A model generated the notes under the pieces. The model ran no database searches and was not told the origin of the DNA. It saw only the letters and a list, made by a program, of their open reading frames with translations. Shown one piece after another: positions 31,901-35,382 of a stretch of 64,000 bases of DNA. The stretch lies in the IMG/VR virus record IMGVR_UViG_2684623011_000001, positions 53,091-117,090 of that record; one strand, given 5' to 3'. Source of the stretch: a virus (Duplodnaviria; Heunggongvirae; Uroviricota; Caudoviricetes). The position numbers and the translations under genes were made by a program. Numbering within the stretch: the stretch's first letter is position 1; every line of letters begins with the position of its first letter.

Positions 31901-31925
31901 TGCTGGAGGCTGGACTCGAACCAAC
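31901..31925 (-). pseudogene. tRNA 3'-half remnant (T-arm plus acceptor 3' strand)
   Basis: GTTGG-TTCGAGT-CCAGC-CTCCAGC-A. No matching 5' half found. Confidence 0.3.
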
Positions 31926-31945
31926 AACCTGATGATATTCCGAAT

Positions 31946-31974
31946 ATGGAGTAGACGGGAGTCGAACCCGTGTC
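31946..31974 (-). pseudogene. tRNA 3'-half remnant
   Basis: CACGG-GTTCGACT-CCCGT-CTACTCC-A. No matching 5' half found. Confidence 0.3.
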
Positions 31975-32383
31975 CAACCAAACCAGTTTCCAAATACATT
32001 TTAGACTTAATAGGACTATGTTCTAAATTTTCGACTTAGGGAACGTTACATAGTAATTTTCCAAAAACTACCTAGTCTAGCTAGTTTTAATACTTAGTCA
32101 CACTCAAACTAGCAAATCATGAACTAAGACCAGAGGGGTGAAATATGATAGCTAATATCCTTATCTGGTATCAAAATATTAACCAAGTACCTATAAGCTA
32201 GGCAGCTAAAGCTGTAACTCTATGGTTATTTGCTTTTATATTTAAATGAAAGTATTTCGGCGTTATCTTCCGTAAGTCGTATTTAGGGCTTTATTTGACT
32301 GTCGAATCCATAAACTACCCCAGAATAGAGCTTTAAATCATAGCTCCAAATAATAATTCAAATAGACTTCTTGATGAAGTCTA

Positions 32384-32457
32384 TAACATAGAAGGGATTT
32401 GAACCCTTGCTCTTACCCGCTAAGATAAAGCTCTACCAAGCTGAGACTTACTATGTT
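32384..32457 (-). tRNA. tRNA-like gene, non-canonical (anticodon-loop region unusual)
   Basis: Perfect 7-bp acceptor (AACATAG/CTATGTT), good T-arm (AAGGG-TTCAAAT-CCCTT) and a D-loop AGCTTGGTA, but the anticodon stem/loop does not fold canonically. Confidence 0.35.
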
Positions 32458-32913
32458 ACTTATATATCAAAATATTTCTTGTGGTGGAACCCCTAACAGC
32501 TTTTGCCTTATTCCACATTTATTCCTACTAGCTTCATAGGATGGGCATAGTCCTTATCCCTGCTAAGGGGCGCTGTCGTTACTCGCTGAATATTTTGATA
32601 TGTTCTTTTGTTAAGGGAGACTCATTTCAAGACCTCAACATCGCTAACTTAGAAATCTCCTTTATTCCTAATGCTAAAGACCGCGGGTGTTTCGGAATTC
32701 AGCGAAATTTCACTATTAACTGGTGATCAACCCCACTCACGGATTCCGCACATGCCTACGCTCCGTCAGCGAATATTGTACCTGTCTTTTATAAAATCCT
32801 GATTTTATTAAACTGTTCAGGTCAGCAAGTGGGATGTGATAACCCCTCGATAAAACCTCTGCGATCGGTCGTAACCTTTAATGCAAAGGGATTGTTCTTT
32901 GCCATAATGGCAA

Positions 32914-32990
32914 TACTCCAGGCTGGATTTGAACCAAAGCGACCTCACAATTATAAGTTGTGCACTCTAACCTGACTGAGTTACTGGAGT
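32914..32990 (-). tRNA. tRNA-Ile (anticodon TAT)
   Basis: Acceptor ACTCCAG/CTGGAGT. D-arm ACTC-AGTCAGGTTA-GAGT. Anticodon arm CACAA-CTTATAA-TTGTG. T-loop TTCAAAT. 77 nt. Confidence 0.65.
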
Positions 32991-33303
32991 GTAATAAAGA
33001 GGTGATTTATTTATATTCGCAGCTACACCCCGCTGCTATCACATGCCAACAATACCAGGTATTCTACCCTCGTGTTGACTTTGAGACACCAGTTTTACAG
33101 TCTATGTTTCCAAGGACACACTGGATTTACTCTCCGCTCCGTTAAGTGAAATACAATTCTAGCGACGGCACACTAGAACCAAAACTTGATAAATTACCGA
33201 ATGGCACCGACTCCACTTTGTGCGCTGTAAACAGCCCATTCTCGGCAAACTTAGGCGGAGACACTAACCTTGCCACCGCGAAGGGATAATTTATCAAGTT
33301 AAC

Positions 33304-33328
33304 CACCAATAAGGGATTCGAACCCTCA
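33304..33328 (-). pseudogene. tRNA 3'-half remnant
   Basis: GAGGG-TTCGAAT-CCCTT-ATTGGTG-G. Confidence 0.3.
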
Positions 33329-33703
33329 ACACCGCGTTGCAATTGCGCCTAGACATTTCATTTGGATTTTATTTACTCCTCTTGTTGAACTCGCACTTGC
33401 GGATTGTGTTTATCTCAAAGGTCTCCATCAATGCTTTACTAGGTTATCCAATACTTATCATATCCGCATTTATGACTTTCTTGGGTGGTACTTCCGAGAC
33501 TTGGTGAAAAATAATTTGAATACCTAACCAAATGAACCTAAGTGGTCTACTCAGGAGTTACAACTTGACCAAATGTCGTAAGTGGACGCCTATTACTCAC
33601 ATAGCTCGACGCCTGCCGCAGGTTGTTACCTCTTTATGGATTGATAATCCAGAAGCCCATTACTTAATGTGAGACCTTTGCGACTCTTTAGTATTCAAAT
33701 TAA

Positions 33704-33785
33704 GTGGGTAAGACGGAATCGAACCGCCATTACTGGGCCTGTTTTACGTGTACACCCCATCGTTTCTGCCATTGAACTATTACCC
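33704..33785 (-). tRNA. tRNA-like gene, 82 nt, irregular central region
   Basis: Perfect acceptor (TGGGTAA/TTACCCA), D-arm AGTTCAATGGCAGAAAC and T-arm GGCGG-TTCGATT-CCGTC, but 49 nt between that cannot be folded by eye into a standard anticodon arm. Confidence 0.35.
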
Positions 33786-33789
33786 AGAA

Positions 33790-33814
33790 TGCCCAGGGCA
33801 GGATTCGAACCTGC
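33790..33814 (-). pseudogene. tRNA 3'-half remnant
   Basis: GCAGG-TTCGAAT-CCTGC-CCTGGGC-A. Confidence 0.3.
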
Positions 33815-34809
33815 TACCTCAGGGTCAATGTTTTTCAACACGCGCGTGTATCCCTGCGCTCTCGCCAAATATTTCGAGCTACCTAGACATAATAATATCC
33901 ACCCAGAAACGTTAGATGGTGAACTGATAAGTTAAGAGCTTGTTGACTGTGCTAAGTATCAGTCTGATTACTCTTAGAGCTTATATCTTTTTGATGGACA
34001 TTGACTTAGCAATTCTGTCCGCGATTAATCACTACCATTTCTGGTAGGTACCTTCGCATTGCGAAGATGTAGCCTATAACTAGGCAAATCATTTTCAGAC
34101 AGTTCAGTTGATCTTAAGCTGACCATTCTATAAAGAACTATCTGGAATAGTCCTGTTGGGGATCGAACCTGATTAATCTTTAACAAGACAGCCTCTTTCT
34201 TATCTGTCATACCTATTTCTTTTGCATTCTCTGAGCACGTGCTCTCTTGAACACCGAGGTGGGTAATTATGCTGTATTTCGAAGCCCTACGTGAGCCGTA
34301 ATCAGATTATATAAATAAGTTTATTATCTTATCGCTGTTACAACAGCAATTTAAAGACGCAAAAACTTTATAAAAGAAGCATTTTACTTTGATGGGAAAC
34401 ACTTAGACCACCCATTATTCCTCGAACGGATTTGGAATAAATTGGACAGGAATCAAAGTCCGTTCTCTGCCGATTTGTCTTTTTTATTTTTCAAATACTT
34501 CCGCCAATAACTAGTATGACTTGCAATCTTGTATTTGTATTATTCAGGGTGTAGATTACCAGAGCACCCGAACCTGCAACCCGAGAATTAAACTCAGCAT
34601 TAACTTAGGCAATATCTGCATCGCAGGTAGTCGCACACGCAACCATATCAATAAGAAGCGTGGCATCAATCACATTACGAGCATTAGAAACTCCTCCAGT
34701 TGTGAGTAGGATACCTCGTATAAATCACATTACTGCCATTTATACTCAAGCGCTTCAACCGACATACCTGTTGCCGGTTTTCCTATTATACATATCCATA
34801 TAACAGAAA

Positions 34810-34892
34810 CACCTAGAGAGGGATTTGAACCCCCGAACCCGAAGGAACGGTTTTGGAGACCGTCGCGTTTGACCAGACTTCGCTATCTAGGT
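34810..34892 (-). tRNA. class II (long variable arm) tRNA with anticodon CCA
   Basis: Acceptor ACCTAGA/TCTAGGT. Ser/Leu-type D-arm GCG-AAGTCTGGTCAAA-CGC. Anticodon arm ACGGT-CTCCAAA-ACCGT. 12-nt variable arm TCCTTCGGGTTC. T-arm GGGGG-TTCAAAT-CCCTC. 83 nt. Confidence 0.55.
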
Positions 34893-35047
34893 ATTAATAA
34901 CGTGCCATGCCAGCGCAAACACGTTATTAGATCGAATTGAAAAATGTAAAGGTAAAGGTATATGGAAAACATAACCTATTGAACATACGTTAGGCGTTTT
35001 TACATTCCAAACGTTTTCCGTCATTTGAAACAACCTATTGCTAGGAA

Positions 35048-35116
35048 TTTCGGTAATGGGAATCGAACCACATATTTACACCGCACAATGTTGCTCTACC
35101 ATTGAGCTATACCGAA
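35048..35116 (-). tRNA. tRNA-like gene without a canonical anticodon arm (69 nt)
   Basis: Acceptor TTCGGTA/TACCGAA. Textbook D-arm GCTC-AATGGTA-GAGC. T-arm with one bulge. Only 19 nt between the D and T arms. Confidence 0.35.
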
Positions 35117-35224
35117 CCACATCAAGACAAGATCACACATATCTTATCTGACTAACTAATCTTTCATATTTCGGAGGTGCTTAACCATGAAAGGAGTTCC
35201 CCAGCCCAACCACTTAGCTGGGAA

Positions 35225-35249
35225 TAACACAAAACGGAATCGAACCGCA
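35225..35249 (-). pseudogene. tRNA 3'-half remnant
   Basis: TGCGG-TTCGATT-CCGTT-TTGTGTT-A. Confidence 0.25.
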
Positions 35250-35357
35250 GTGTGCTGACAAAAGTAGATAAAAAGAAATGAAAATTTATGAATCAACAAT
35301 TCTTGATTATTAAACACAGCACGTAAATGTTTAATAATTTCGGGCATTTCTGCCCTA

Positions 35358-35382
35358 TGCGAAGCAGAGGAGTCGAACCTCT
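35358..35382 (-). pseudogene. tRNA 3'-half remnant
   Basis: AGAGG-TTCGACT-CCTCT-GCTTCGC-A. A possible 5' acceptor mate lies about 110 nt away. Confidence 0.3.

What the first reader, a model, noticed from the sequence alone, without database searches (positions are those of the whole stretch)
31901..35382. Six isolated tRNA 3' halves (T-arm plus 3' acceptor strand) without cognate 5' halves
At 31901-31925, 31946-31974, 33304-33328, 33790-33814, 35225-35249 and 35358-35382 there are perfect or near-perfect 5-bp T-stems with TTCGA-type loops, each followed by a 7-nt acceptor strand and discriminator. No complementary 5' acceptor strand was found within about 100 nt upstream. For 35358-35382 a possible mate lies about 110 nt away. 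Candidate explanations include tRNA genes with large insertions or introns, att-site-like 3' tRNA fragments, or tRNA fragments made on purpose.
Basis: seen in the sequence. Interest (0 to 1): 0.55.

Follow-up and report, generated by a model that had tools for sequence, protein, structure and literature searches.

The report
Odd tRNA-like genes, not orphan halves
The six "orphan" tRNA 3' halves in this Limosilactobacillus reuteri phage-plasmid each have a candidate partner strand in an unexpected place (well supported for three): one is the end of a tmRNA, and the others appear to belong to unannotated tRNA-shaped RNAs that cannot decode, one of them circularly permuted like the tRNA-like domain of a bacterial Y RNA.

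Summary
The T-arm plus 3' acceptor motifs are real. They lie on the minus strand, at the stated coordinates, inside a 4.3-kb gene-free tRNA island (31416-35766). The claim that they lack 5' partners does not hold.

- **31946-31974** is the 3' end of a tmRNA (31947-32321).
- **33790-33814** ends a contiguous 99-nt tRNA-like gene with a 27-nt anticodon loop. All four stems covary in relatives.
- **35225-35249** is a self-contained acceptor/T-arm minihelix hairpin.
- **31901-31925** belongs to a circularly permuted tRNA-like cloverleaf. The order is T-arm, then an acceptor stem capped by a 24-nt linker, then the D-arm, with the two ends paired in an anticodon-stem-like helix. Three sequence-divergent variants keep every helix.
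- **35358-35382 and 33304-33328** are closed by 6-bp acceptor helices 108 and 172 nt upstream. Support here is weaker.

Relatives are L. reuteri 130-140 kb phage-plasmids, where only canonical tRNAs had been annotated. Most likely these are non-decoding tRNA mimics whose acceptor/T-arm half is processed by host tRNA enzymes. Their function is inferred, not shown. This is a new variant of known kinds (YrlA-like, tmRNA-like and minihelix RNAs).

The parts
31947..32321 (-). tmRNA (tag ANNHRVTALAA).
   Evidence: ARAGORN. Rfam RF00023 74.4 bits against a gathering score of 47.
31818..31946 (-). Its parts are: closing helix II 31941-31944 with 31821-31824; anticodon-stem-like helix 31931-31936 with 31827-31832; T-arm 31909-31925; 3' acceptor strand 31902-31908; discriminator 31901; linker with hairpin 31878-31900; 5' acceptor strand 31871-31877; D-arm with an inserted hairpin 31834-31868.
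   Evidence: The minimum-free-energy fold of this stretch alone gives exactly this cloverleaf. Model R1 was built from window-type sequences only. It finds the divergent variants L015 9471-9585 (33.3 bits, E about 1e-6) and L116 (94 bits) over their full length. Pair counts: 26 pairs, 95% of cells paired, 11 pairs changed on both sides, 0/500 shuffles as good.
31737..31817 (-). 3' extension of the same cassette: hairpins AGACG/CGTCT, GTGG/CCAC and GGAGGG/TCCCTC. The last is terminator-like.
   Evidence: The 200-nt cassette 31737-31936 is 98% identical in L092, whose array is otherwise unrelated. The first hairpin is replaced by a different hairpin, AAGGTT/AACCTT, in L015.
33790..33888 (-). Acceptor GTCTAGG/CCTGGGC, D stem GCTC/GAGC, anticodon stem CAGGG/CCCTG. 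The loop is AT + palindrome ACACGCGCGTGT + TGAAAAACATTGA.
   Evidence: Hand fold checked on relatives. Pair count on A9: 21 pairs, 100% of cells paired, 7 pairs changed on both sides, 0/500 shuffles as good. The Rfam tRNA model gives only 19.4 bits.
35225..35256 (-).
   Evidence: The minimum-free-energy fold gives the hairpin (z -2.3). The 7 nt directly upstream pair 6/7; 0.037 of shuffles did as well. The only two changes in the 5' strand among 8 relatives are A to G opposite U, which keeps the pair.
35358..35497 (-). It starts 2-3 nt after tRNA-Arg.
   Evidence: The minimum-free-energy fold closes on this helix (z -2.3). The mosaic block shared with L001 begins at 35500. Among 8 relatives, 0/32 columns vary in both acceptor strands plus the T-arm, against 25/110 in the interior. 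The shuffle fraction for the complement alone was 0.037. No covariation is available.
35341..35356 (-). Hairpin immediately 3' of the 140-nt RNA (GGGCA-GAAA-TGCCC).
   Evidence: Compensatory changes to GAGTA...TACTC in L005, L013 and L015.
33303..33506 (-). This is the weakest assignment.
   Evidence: The minimum-free-energy fold closes on this helix, but z is 0.09. The block shared with L001 and L013 starts at 33510. The shuffle fraction was 0.089. Relatives are about 99% identical, so there is no covariation.
31416..35766 (-). The tRNA island that holds all of the above. It also holds tRNA-Arg 35498-35574, tRNA-Trp 34809-34893, tRNA-Ile 32914-32990 and further non-canonical tRNA-likes (35048-35116, 33704-33786, 32384-32457, 31550-31609).
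   Evidence: There are no credible ORFs between the deoxynucleoside kinase gene (30631-31416) and the glutaredoxin gene (35766-36041). tRNA and tRNA-like calls come.

Best explanation
The motifs are the acceptor/T-arm 'top halves' of a tmRNA and of five non-decoding tRNA-like RNAs. All are encoded in the tRNA island of a Limosilactobacillus reuteri phage-plasmid.

Each top half appears to be completed by a 5' acceptor strand, but the rest of the tRNA body is altered in a different way each time:
- a swollen anticodon loop (33790-33888);
- nothing at all, leaving a bare minihelix (35225-35256);
- a 100-170 nt insert, as in the tRNA-like domain of tmRNA (35358-35497 and 33303-33506);
- a circular permutation (31818-31946), in which the acceptor stem is capped by a linker and the RNA ends pair in an anticodon-stem-like helix. 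This is the topology of the tRNA-like domain of bacterial YrlA.

Shown here: the sequences, the folds, and covariation for two of the five.

Inferred: the island is transcribed together with its tRNAs. Host RNase P, RNase Z and the CCA-adding enzyme recognise the acceptor/T-arm stack, and so they cut out and stabilise these RNAs. In the permuted one they would excise the linker and leave a two-piece RNA, one piece being a CCA-tailed tRNA 3' half. Because the RNAs lack anticodon loops, they would act as tRNA mimics or decoys for tRNA-binding proteins rather than in decoding.
For: - tmRNA.
- Contiguous gene 33790-33888: four distinct variants in relatives keep all 21 pairs. Seven pairs change on both sides and 0/500 shuffles match.
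- Permuted cloverleaf: the single-sequence fold recovers it. A model built without the divergent variants finds them full length. 11 of 26 pairs change on both sides, 95% of cells are paired, 0/500 shuffles match, and slid controls reach 34-56% paired. The acceptor 3:70 pair runs U-A, U-G, C-G across variants. Only 21 nt separate its T-arm from the tmRNA end, so an ordinary 5' half cannot fit. The cassette also follows a different tRNA in L012 and L092.
- Minihelix.
- 140-nt RNA: position, conservation of both acceptor strands and the T-arm, and fold.
- Recurrence of the same designs: other non-decoding tRNA-likes in the island covary as well. Large-insert elements with 7/7 and 6+1 acceptor helices occur in two other arrays.
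- Precedent for processing: M. smegmatis YrlA has the same T, acceptor stem-loop, D order and a 7-bp acceptor stem. It is cut by RNase P and receives CCA (PMC4201824).
Against: - There are no expression, end-mapping or processing data.
- For 35358-35497, 33303-33506 and the minihelix there is no covariation. Relatives are 94-99% identical, and each complement alone has a shuffle fraction of 0.04-0.09. The 204-nt fold is no more stable than shuffles (z 0.09).
- Covariation for the permuted RNA rests on only three independent variants, and the alignment was fitted to the model.
- Its acceptor stem carries an A-C mismatch at 4:69 in 9 of 10 sequences.
- The island clearly also decays. The element at about 34146-34200 is a broken copy of an intact 55-nt tRNA-like in L003.
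- The decoy function is speculation.
Confidence: 0.55

Rival explanations
1. Some or all of the motifs are decaying tRNA pseudogene fragments or recombination scars. The island is shuffled by recombination at conserved tRNA sequences, and the partner strands of the less supported ones (33303-33506, 35358-35497, 35225-35256) are fortuitous.
For: - The island is a mosaic of cassettes, with breakpoints at tRNA(-like) gene ends among relatives.
- One element (about 34146-34200) is visibly degraded relative to L003 6491-6545.
- The 204-nt fold has z 0.09.
- Shuffle fractions for single complements are only 0.04-0.09.
- No distant homologues were found.
Against: - Covariation rules this out for 33790-33888 and 31818-31946.
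- In the 140-nt RNA, the T-arm and both acceptor strands show 0/32 variable columns against 23% in the interior. That is tighter than the neighbouring canonical tRNA-Arg at 18%.
- All T-stems are intact with canonical loops.
- The 5' strands sit exactly at cassette starts.
Confidence: 0.25
2. They are true decoding tRNA genes interrupted by introns or insertions that are removed after transcription. This might involve an RNA ligase, and the permuted gene would be matured through a circular intermediate.
For: - ARAGORN in intron mode proposes intron-containing models at three of the motifs, but only at a relaxed threshold.
- Two relatives encode an RNA ligase (PF09414) right beside the island.
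Against: - No group I or II intron family matches at E<=5.
- The relaxed ARAGORN models have poor D-arms and acceptor stems.
- No anticodon loop can be reconstructed for the permuted RNA, the minihelix or the 140-nt RNA.
- The RNA ligase gene is absent from the window.
- Bacteria lack a protein tRNA-splicing endonuclease (established knowledge).
Confidence: 0.07
3. They are att-site-like copies of host tRNA 3' ends left by site-specific integration.
For: The window encodes a tyrosine-recombinase-like protein (50260-51312). tRNA and tmRNA 3' ends are common attachment sites (established knowledge).
Against: - The recombinase gene is 15 kb away.
- The replicon is an extrachromosomal RepA/ParA phage-plasmid (PMC4667477).
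- The motifs differ from one another.
- Partner strands covary with them.
Confidence: 0.03
4. The 'permuted' element is an artefact of two adjacent truncated tRNAs: the T-arm of one followed by the D-arm of the next. The YrlA authors warn about this kind of false positive.
For: Model R1 gives weak hits (E 0.1-6) at ordinary tRNA-tRNA junctions in L066 and in the window at 33743-33833. PMC4201824 notes the same problem.
Against: - The 3' and 5' acceptor strands pair with each other.
- The flanks pair to close the cloverleaf in three variants with unrelated helix sequences: ATCATC/GGTGAT, CTATAG/CTATAG, and TTCACAA-C-TCT/AGA-C-TTGTGAA.
- No missing halves lie nearby.
Confidence: 0.03

Closest known systems
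YrlA, the tRNA-like bacterial/phage Y RNA (Chen et al. 2014, PMC4201824)
   Same: The order along the RNA is the same: T stem-loop, then a closed 'acceptor' stem-loop, then the D stem-loop, with the 5' and 3' ends paired where the anticodon stem would be. The M. smegmatis member has a 7-bp acceptor stem, is cut there by RNase P and gains CCA. The window element also has a 7-position acceptor stem.
   Different: - No Ro60/TROVE gene was found in the window, nor among 10 large hypothetical ORFs of p53608_1.
- No GNCGAA(N)G motif was seen by eye in the closing helix.
- No Rfam family hits the element at E<=10.
- It sits in a tRNA island directly after a tmRNA or tRNA.
Circularly permuted tRNA genes (Cyanidioschyzon merolae and other algae, some archaea; from general knowledge)
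   Same: The 3' half (T-arm, 3' acceptor) lies upstream of the 5' half (5' acceptor, D-arm), joined by a short linker across the acceptor termini.
   Different: Those genes yield normal decoding tRNAs through a circular intermediate made by the splicing machinery. Here there is no anticodon loop, the D-loop carries an extra hairpin, and the host is a bacterium with no known such pathway.
tmRNA tRNA-like domain and two-piece tmRNA from permuted ssrA
   Same: An acceptor stem plus T-arm closes a large insert, as in the 140-nt and 204-nt RNAs. The permuted gene order, with excision of a linker, gives two base-paired pieces, as in the permuted element.
   Different: No tag reading frame or pseudoknots were found. 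Rfam tmRNA and tmRNA_permuted models hit only the genuine tmRNA region.
tRNA acceptor/T-arm minihelix (a synthetic substrate of RNase P, CCA-adding enzyme and AlaRS; from general knowledge)
   Same: 35225-35256 is a 7+5 position coaxial helix with a canonical T-loop, a discriminator A and nothing else.
   Different: It is naturally encoded. It has two mismatches at the acceptor/T junction and no G3-U70.
ROOL and GOLLD large RNAs of phage tRNA islands
   Same: Same genomic niche: tRNA islands of phages and prophages of Lactobacillales (PMC12286853, PMC5737381). A ROOL RNA sits in the tRNA array of relative L011.
   Different: No ROOL or GOLLD match in the window. The elements here are small and tRNA-shaped.

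Membership tests
Canonical tRNA (Rfam RF00005) | Contiguous cloverleaf scoring at or above the gathering score (29 bits), with a 7-nt anticodon loop | tested here: not met
   Of the five non-tmRNA motifs, only 33790-33859 is hit, at 19.4 bits. Its loop is 27 nt. ARAGORN default mode calls none of them.
tmRNA (RF00023), for motif 31946-31974 | tRNA-like domain plus tag reading frame, scoring above the gathering score | tested here: met
   74.4 bits against 47. Tag ANNHRVTALAA. G3-U70 in acceptor GGGGTAG/CTACTCC.
YrlA (tRNA-like Y RNA), for 31818-31946 | T stem-loop, closed acceptor stem-loop and D stem-loop in that order, with RNA ends paired in place of the anticodon stem | tested here: met
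   Fold and covariation. Order compared with the description in PMC4201824.
YrlA (tRNA-like Y RNA), for 31818-31946 | Encoded next to a Ro60/Rsr (TROVE) gene | tested here: not met
   Flanking genes are a deoxynucleoside kinase, a glutaredoxin and PnuC. There was no TROVE hit in 37 ORFs scanned from the window and from p53608_1. Not every ORF of the plasmid was scanned.
YrlA (tRNA-like Y RNA), for 31818-31946 | Conserved GNCGAA(N)G Ro-binding motif in the closing helix | tested here: not met
   Read by eye on three variants. The nearest is AACGAAG in the window's 3' strand. It is absent from L015 and L116.
Circularly permuted tRNA gene | 3' half upstream of 5' half, with mutually complementary acceptor strands | tested here: met
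   CTCCAGC ... 24 nt ... GCTAGAG. In L015, CTCTGGC/GCCGGAG. In L116, CTCCGGC/GCCAGAG.
Circularly permuted tRNA gene | Product is a decoding tRNA (anticodon loop restored on joining the ends) | tested here: not met
   The ends continue as an extended helix. No 7-nt loop can be formed.
Two-piece (permuted) tmRNA | Tag reading frame and pseudoknots between the 5' acceptor strand and the closing helix | tested here: not met
   Only a D-arm lies there. The Rfam tmRNA_permuted model does not hit 31737-31946.
tRNA gene with a group I or II intron | Match to an intron covariance model inside the gene | tested here: not met
   No intron family at E<=5 in 30500-37000.
Phage attachment-site tRNA fragment | Exact identity to the 3' end of a host tRNA gene | not testable with these tools
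   No L. reuteri chromosome was available.
Phage attachment-site tRNA fragment | Lies next to the integrase gene | tested here: not met
   The nearest recombinase-like ORF is 50260-51312.
tRNA minihelix, for 35225-35256 | Acceptor stem stacked directly on a T-arm with a canonical T-loop, and no D or anticodon arm | tested here: met
   10 of 12 positions paired. The minimum-free-energy fold gives the hairpin. Activity as a substrate was not tested.

The most novel reading that the evidence does not exclude
L. reuteri phage-plasmids carry a repertoire of at least five structural classes of non-decoding tRNA mimics in their tRNA island: permuted (YrlA-like but without Ro), bare minihelix, anticodon-arm-less, swollen-loop and large-insert.

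The permuted one would be cut by RNase P and RNase Z into a two-piece RNA, one piece being a deliberately made, CCA-tailed tRNA 3' half. The set would serve as decoys or ligands for tRNA-targeting host defences or toxins. This would be a counter-defence route distinct from supplying nuclease-resistant decoding tRNAs.
Probability: 0.25. Interest if true: 0.8.

Novelty: new variant of a known kind. Interest (0 to 1): 0.6.

Why it matters
Phage and plasmid tRNA islands are normally annotated only for canonical tRNAs. The published description of the closest relative lists six tRNAs and nothing else (PMC4667477).

Here roughly two thirds of the tRNA-shaped genes are non-decoding, and at least four of them are under structural selection.

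If they are expressed, three things follow:
- They extend tRNA mimicry of the YrlA, tmRNA and minihelix types to a mobile element that has no Ro protein.
- They give a natural example of a permuted tRNA-like gene in a bacterial system.
- They offer testable candidates for RNA decoys in the current arms race around tRNA-cleaving defence systems.

They also show that standard tRNA finders both miss such genes and mislabel them. The 'tRNA-Tyr with intron' call at 33704-33786 is an example.

Tried and rejected
- **ARAGORN with introns allowed.** At the default threshold it found nothing new. At 80% threshold it gave intron models with poor D-arms and acceptors, which I rejected.
- **Rfam.** Tried at gathering score, at E<=5 over the island, and at E<=10 on the permuted element. 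It returned only tRNA and tmRNA hits and noise.
- **blastn against GenBank phages.** Only generic tRNA matches.
- **nhmmer with every unit and spacer against all 120 loci.** No homologues beyond the close clade.
- **IMG/VR pattern scans for the permuted cassette.** They returned only four contigs already in hand plus one chance hit in a coding region, L094.
- **Metagenome and genome scans with the kinase alignment.** Beyond about 60% identity these returned mostly host kinase genes with no tRNA island.
- **A permissive search for partner 7-mers with free G-U pairing.** Uninformative, with dozens of hits per motif.
- **A tRNA nested around the tmRNA.** I considered TTTGGAG at 32350 pairing with the 31901-31925 acceptor. 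I dropped this once the downstream partner and its covariation were found.
- **The minimum-free-energy helix GGAAAGG/CCTTTCT inside the 140-nt RNA.** The substitutions seen in L012 and L013 do not support it.
- **Direct-repeat search within the island.** Only T-arm similarity.

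
Full report
**Setting.** The finding lies in a 4.35-kb stretch (31416-35766) with no credible ORFs. It sits between a deoxynucleoside kinase gene (30631-31416) and a glutaredoxin gene (35766-36041), and all neighbouring genes are on the minus strand.
- ARAGORN finds a tmRNA and four tRNAs there, all on the minus strand.
- Rfam adds three low-scoring tRNA-like hits.
- The nearest relatives are 130-140 kb Limosilactobacillus reuteri replicons deposited as plasmids (LN906635.1 p53608_1, NZ_CP102426.1, NZ_CP065541.1). 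They carry RepA/ParA together with phage structural, holin and endolysin genes, so they are phage-plasmids.
- The paper describing p53608_1 lists only six canonical tRNAs on it (PMC4667477).

**The observation.** A scan for 5-bp T-stems with TTCRA loops finds 12 G+C-rich T-arms on the minus strand between 31550 and 35524. The rest of the window, both strands, has essentially one. All six motifs of the finding are among the 12, within 1 nt of the stated coordinates. The motifs are therefore real and non-random. What fails is the claim that they have no 5' partner.

**Motif 31946-31974.** This is the T-arm and 3' acceptor strand of a tmRNA (31947-32321). Rfam scores it 74.4 bits against a gathering score of 47, the tag is ANNHRVTALAA, and the 5' strand lies 375 nt upstream.

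**Motif 33790-33814.** GTCTAGG at 33882-33888 pairs 7/7 (two G-U) with CCTGGGC. It is followed by TA, a D-arm (GCTC...GAGC) and an anticodon stem CAGGG/CCCTG enclosing a 27-nt loop.
- Relatives carry three other versions: acceptor TACGAAG/CTTCGTA or TGCGAAG/CTTCGCA, anticodon stem ATGGG/CCCAT or TTGGG/CCCAG, and D stem GCTT/AAGC.
- On the five distinct sequences, all 21 pairs are paired in 100% of cells and 7 pairs change on both sides. No shuffle of 500 reaches the observed covariation, and sliding the partners drops pairing to 32-55%.
- This is a contiguous but non-canonical tRNA-like gene.

**Motif 35225-35249.** The 7 nt directly 5' of the T-arm (AGCACAC) pair with the 3' acceptor strand TTGTGTT at 6 of 7 positions. 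This gives a 32-nt hairpin that is an acceptor/T-arm minihelix and nothing more.
- The minimum-free-energy fold gives this hairpin, both alone and in context.
- 3.7% of shuffles do as well.
- Among eight relatives, the only two changes in the 5' strand are A to G opposite U.

**Motif 31901-31925.** Only 21 nt separate this T-arm from the tmRNA 3' end, so an upstream 5' half cannot fit. Instead, 24 nt downstream lies GCTAGAG (31871-31877). It is complementary to the 3' acceptor strand CTCCAGC except for an A-C at 4:69, and it is followed by TA and a D-arm (GCTC...GAGT).
- The 6 nt before the variable region (ATCATC) pair with GGTGAT after the D-arm, and a further helix TTCG/CGAA closes the unit. 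The minimum-free-energy fold of 31818-31946 alone is exactly this permuted cloverleaf.
- L015 has a different cassette at the same place: T-arm GTAGG/CCTAC, acceptor CTCTGGC/GCCGGAG, a textbook D-arm TGGCGGAATTGGCAGACGC, and closing helices CTATAG/CTATAG and GTCAC/GTGAT.
- L116 has a third: GCGGG/CCCGT, CTCCGGC/GCCAGAG, and TTCACAA-C-TCT/AGA-C-TTGTGAA.
- A covariance model built only from window-type sequences finds L015 (33.3 bits, E about 1e-6) and L116 (94 bits) over their full length.
- On the resulting alignment, 95% of cells are paired, 11 of 26 pairs change on both sides, 0/500 shuffles match, and slid controls give 34-56%. Two caveats apply: the alignment is fitted to the model, and there are only three independent variants.
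- The 200-nt cassette (31737-31936) is 98% identical in L092, a 124-kb contig whose array is otherwise unrelated. It follows a tRNA rather than the tmRNA in L012 and L092.

**Motifs 35358-35382 and 33304-33328.** GCGAAG (35492-35497) and CACCAA (33501-33506) give six contiguous Watson-Crick pairs with the respective 3' strands, and the minimum-free-energy folds close on them with the T-arm stacked alongside.
- For the 140-nt unit: the 5' strand starts 2-3 nt after tRNA-Arg and at the exact start of the block shared with L001. The fold has z -2.3. Among eight relatives, both acceptor strands and the T-arm show 0/32 variable columns against 25/110 in the interior.
- For the 204-nt unit: the only supports are that the block boundary is at 33510 and a shuffle fraction of 0.089. 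The fold z is 0.09 and relatives are 99% identical.
- Similar large-insert elements with 7/7 and 6+1 acceptor helices occur in L092 and L066.
- I regard the 140-nt assignment as probable and the 204-nt one as possible.

**Is the island junk?** It is a mosaic of cassettes exchanged among relatives, with breakpoints at tRNA(-like) gene ends. One element (about 34146-34200) is a decayed copy of an intact 55-nt tRNA-like in L003. So decay does occur.

Other non-decoding members are nevertheless under structural selection:
- The 60-nt element 31550-31609 lacks an anticodon arm. It shows 99% of cells paired, 6 of 12 pairs changed on both sides and 0/500 shuffles.
- 35048-35116 swaps its short anticodon hairpin for a different one and covaries in the acceptor stem.

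**Mechanism.** What all the elements share is the acceptor/T-arm stack. From established knowledge, this is the part of tRNA recognised by RNase P, RNase Z, the CCA-adding enzyme, EF-Tu and the T-loop modification enzymes.

The closest precedent for the permuted element is YrlA. Its tRNA-like domain has the same T, acceptor stem-loop, D order, and its M. smegmatis member is cut by RNase P in the acceptor stem and then receives CCA (PMC4201824).

I therefore infer that these RNAs are excised from island transcripts by the host tRNA-processing enzymes and act as tRNA mimics. The permuted one would yield a two-piece RNA that includes a CCA-tailed 3' half. A decoy role against tRNA-targeting defences is plausible but untested. 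The presence of an RNA ligase gene beside the island in two relatives fits a tRNA damage and repair context.

**Comparison with known families.** No Ro60/TROVE gene, Ro-binding motif or Rfam match supports membership of YrlA. There is no tag frame, which argues against a permuted tmRNA. There is no anticodon loop, which argues against a permuted decoding tRNA. No intron models match. The elements work like known tRNA mimics but are not demonstrable members of any curated family.

**Verdict.** The finding is a new variant of known kinds and is of moderate to high interest, chiefly for the covariation-supported permuted tRNA-like cassette and the breadth of non-decoding tRNA-like designs in one island.

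Noticed in passing
window 33704-33786 (-): ARAGORN calls this tRNA-Tyr(gta) with an 11-nt intron. It looks instead like a paralogue of the neighbouring 33790-33888 gene. It has an 18-nt anticodon loop made of a palindrome (GTGTACAC) followed by GTAAAAC, the same 'palindrome + G-N-AAAAC' layout as in the other gene and its relatives.
   Followed up: partly
window 31550-31609 (-): A 60-nt tRNA-like gene with acceptor, D- and T-arms but no anticodon arm. It is conserved with compensatory changes in relatives down to about 80% identity, including L008-L010, L002, L092 and L115.
   Followed up: yes
window 35048-35116 (-): A 69-nt tRNA-like gene whose anticodon arm is a short hairpin with a 4-nt loop. 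L116 and L004 carry a different hairpin (GCGT-CAGAAT-ACGC) at the same place, and the acceptor pair 6:67 switches from U-A to C-G.
   Followed up: partly
window about 34146-34200 (-): A degraded copy (T-loop shortened by 1 nt, 5' strand mutated, 8-nt deletion) of a 55-nt armless tRNA-like. That element is intact and covarying in L003 6491-6545, L013 and L015 (AGTCCTG/CAGGACT against AGCCTTG/CAAGGCT).
   Followed up: partly
window 31416-35766 compared with L001-L005, L012-L015, L115, L116: The island is a mosaic. Blocks 85-100% identical alternate with replaced cassettes. For example, 32384-32457 is swapped for tRNA-Thr(ggt) or tRNA-Phe(aaa), and the tmRNA is absent in L012. Breakpoints fall at the ends of tRNA(-like) genes.
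   Followed up: partly
L119 4444-5394 (= LN906635.1 99444-100394); also L005 17634-18578: In two relatives a 316-aa RNA ligase (Pfam PF09414, E 2.6e-13), annotated as hypothetical, lies between the kinase gene and the tRNA island. It is absent from the window.
   Followed up: partly
L011 19251-19825: A ROOL RNA (Rfam RF03087, 210.8 bits) sits inside the tRNA array of a more distant relative. No ROOL or GOLLD match occurs in the window.
   Followed up: no
anticodon-loop positions of several tRNA-likes: window 33846-33857, 33748-33755, 33335-33342; L002 9830-9835; L005 about 15700: Short perfect palindromes (ACACGCGCGTGT, GTGTACAC, GCAATTGC, GTGCAC, GTAGCTAC, ATGCGCAT) occupy the place of the anticodon. 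Some are too short to form hairpins, so loop-loop dimerisation or a DNA-level site is conceivable. GCAATTGC is not conserved in L001 and L013. This remains unexplained.
   Followed up: no
window 34809-34893 (-): tRNA-Trp(cca) is 85 nt long, with a 12-nt extra arm (TCCTTCGGGTTC) in the variable region. Some relatives carry a 74-nt Trp gene instead.
   Followed up: no
window 33184-33299 (-): A 116-nt domain closed by a 16-bp helix (ACTTGATAAATTATC.../...GGTAATTTATCAAGT) follows the 204-nt unit directly. After it comes a terminator-like hairpin at 33154-33181. The whole 312-nt spacer folds with z -2.7.
   Followed up: no
L092 (reverse strand) about 5786-5963; L066 3326-3490: Other phage arrays contain T-arms whose 7-nt acceptor partner lies 133-146 nt upstream (7/7 and 6+1 pairs). 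The L092 one has a tmRNA-like layout. The L066 one encloses a second T-arm fragment followed by a 5'-half-like sequence.
   Followed up: partly
window 32384-32457 (-): A weak tRNA hit (33.7 bits) with a perfect 7-bp acceptor stem but an aberrant anticodon arm. ARAGORN does not call it.
   Followed up: no
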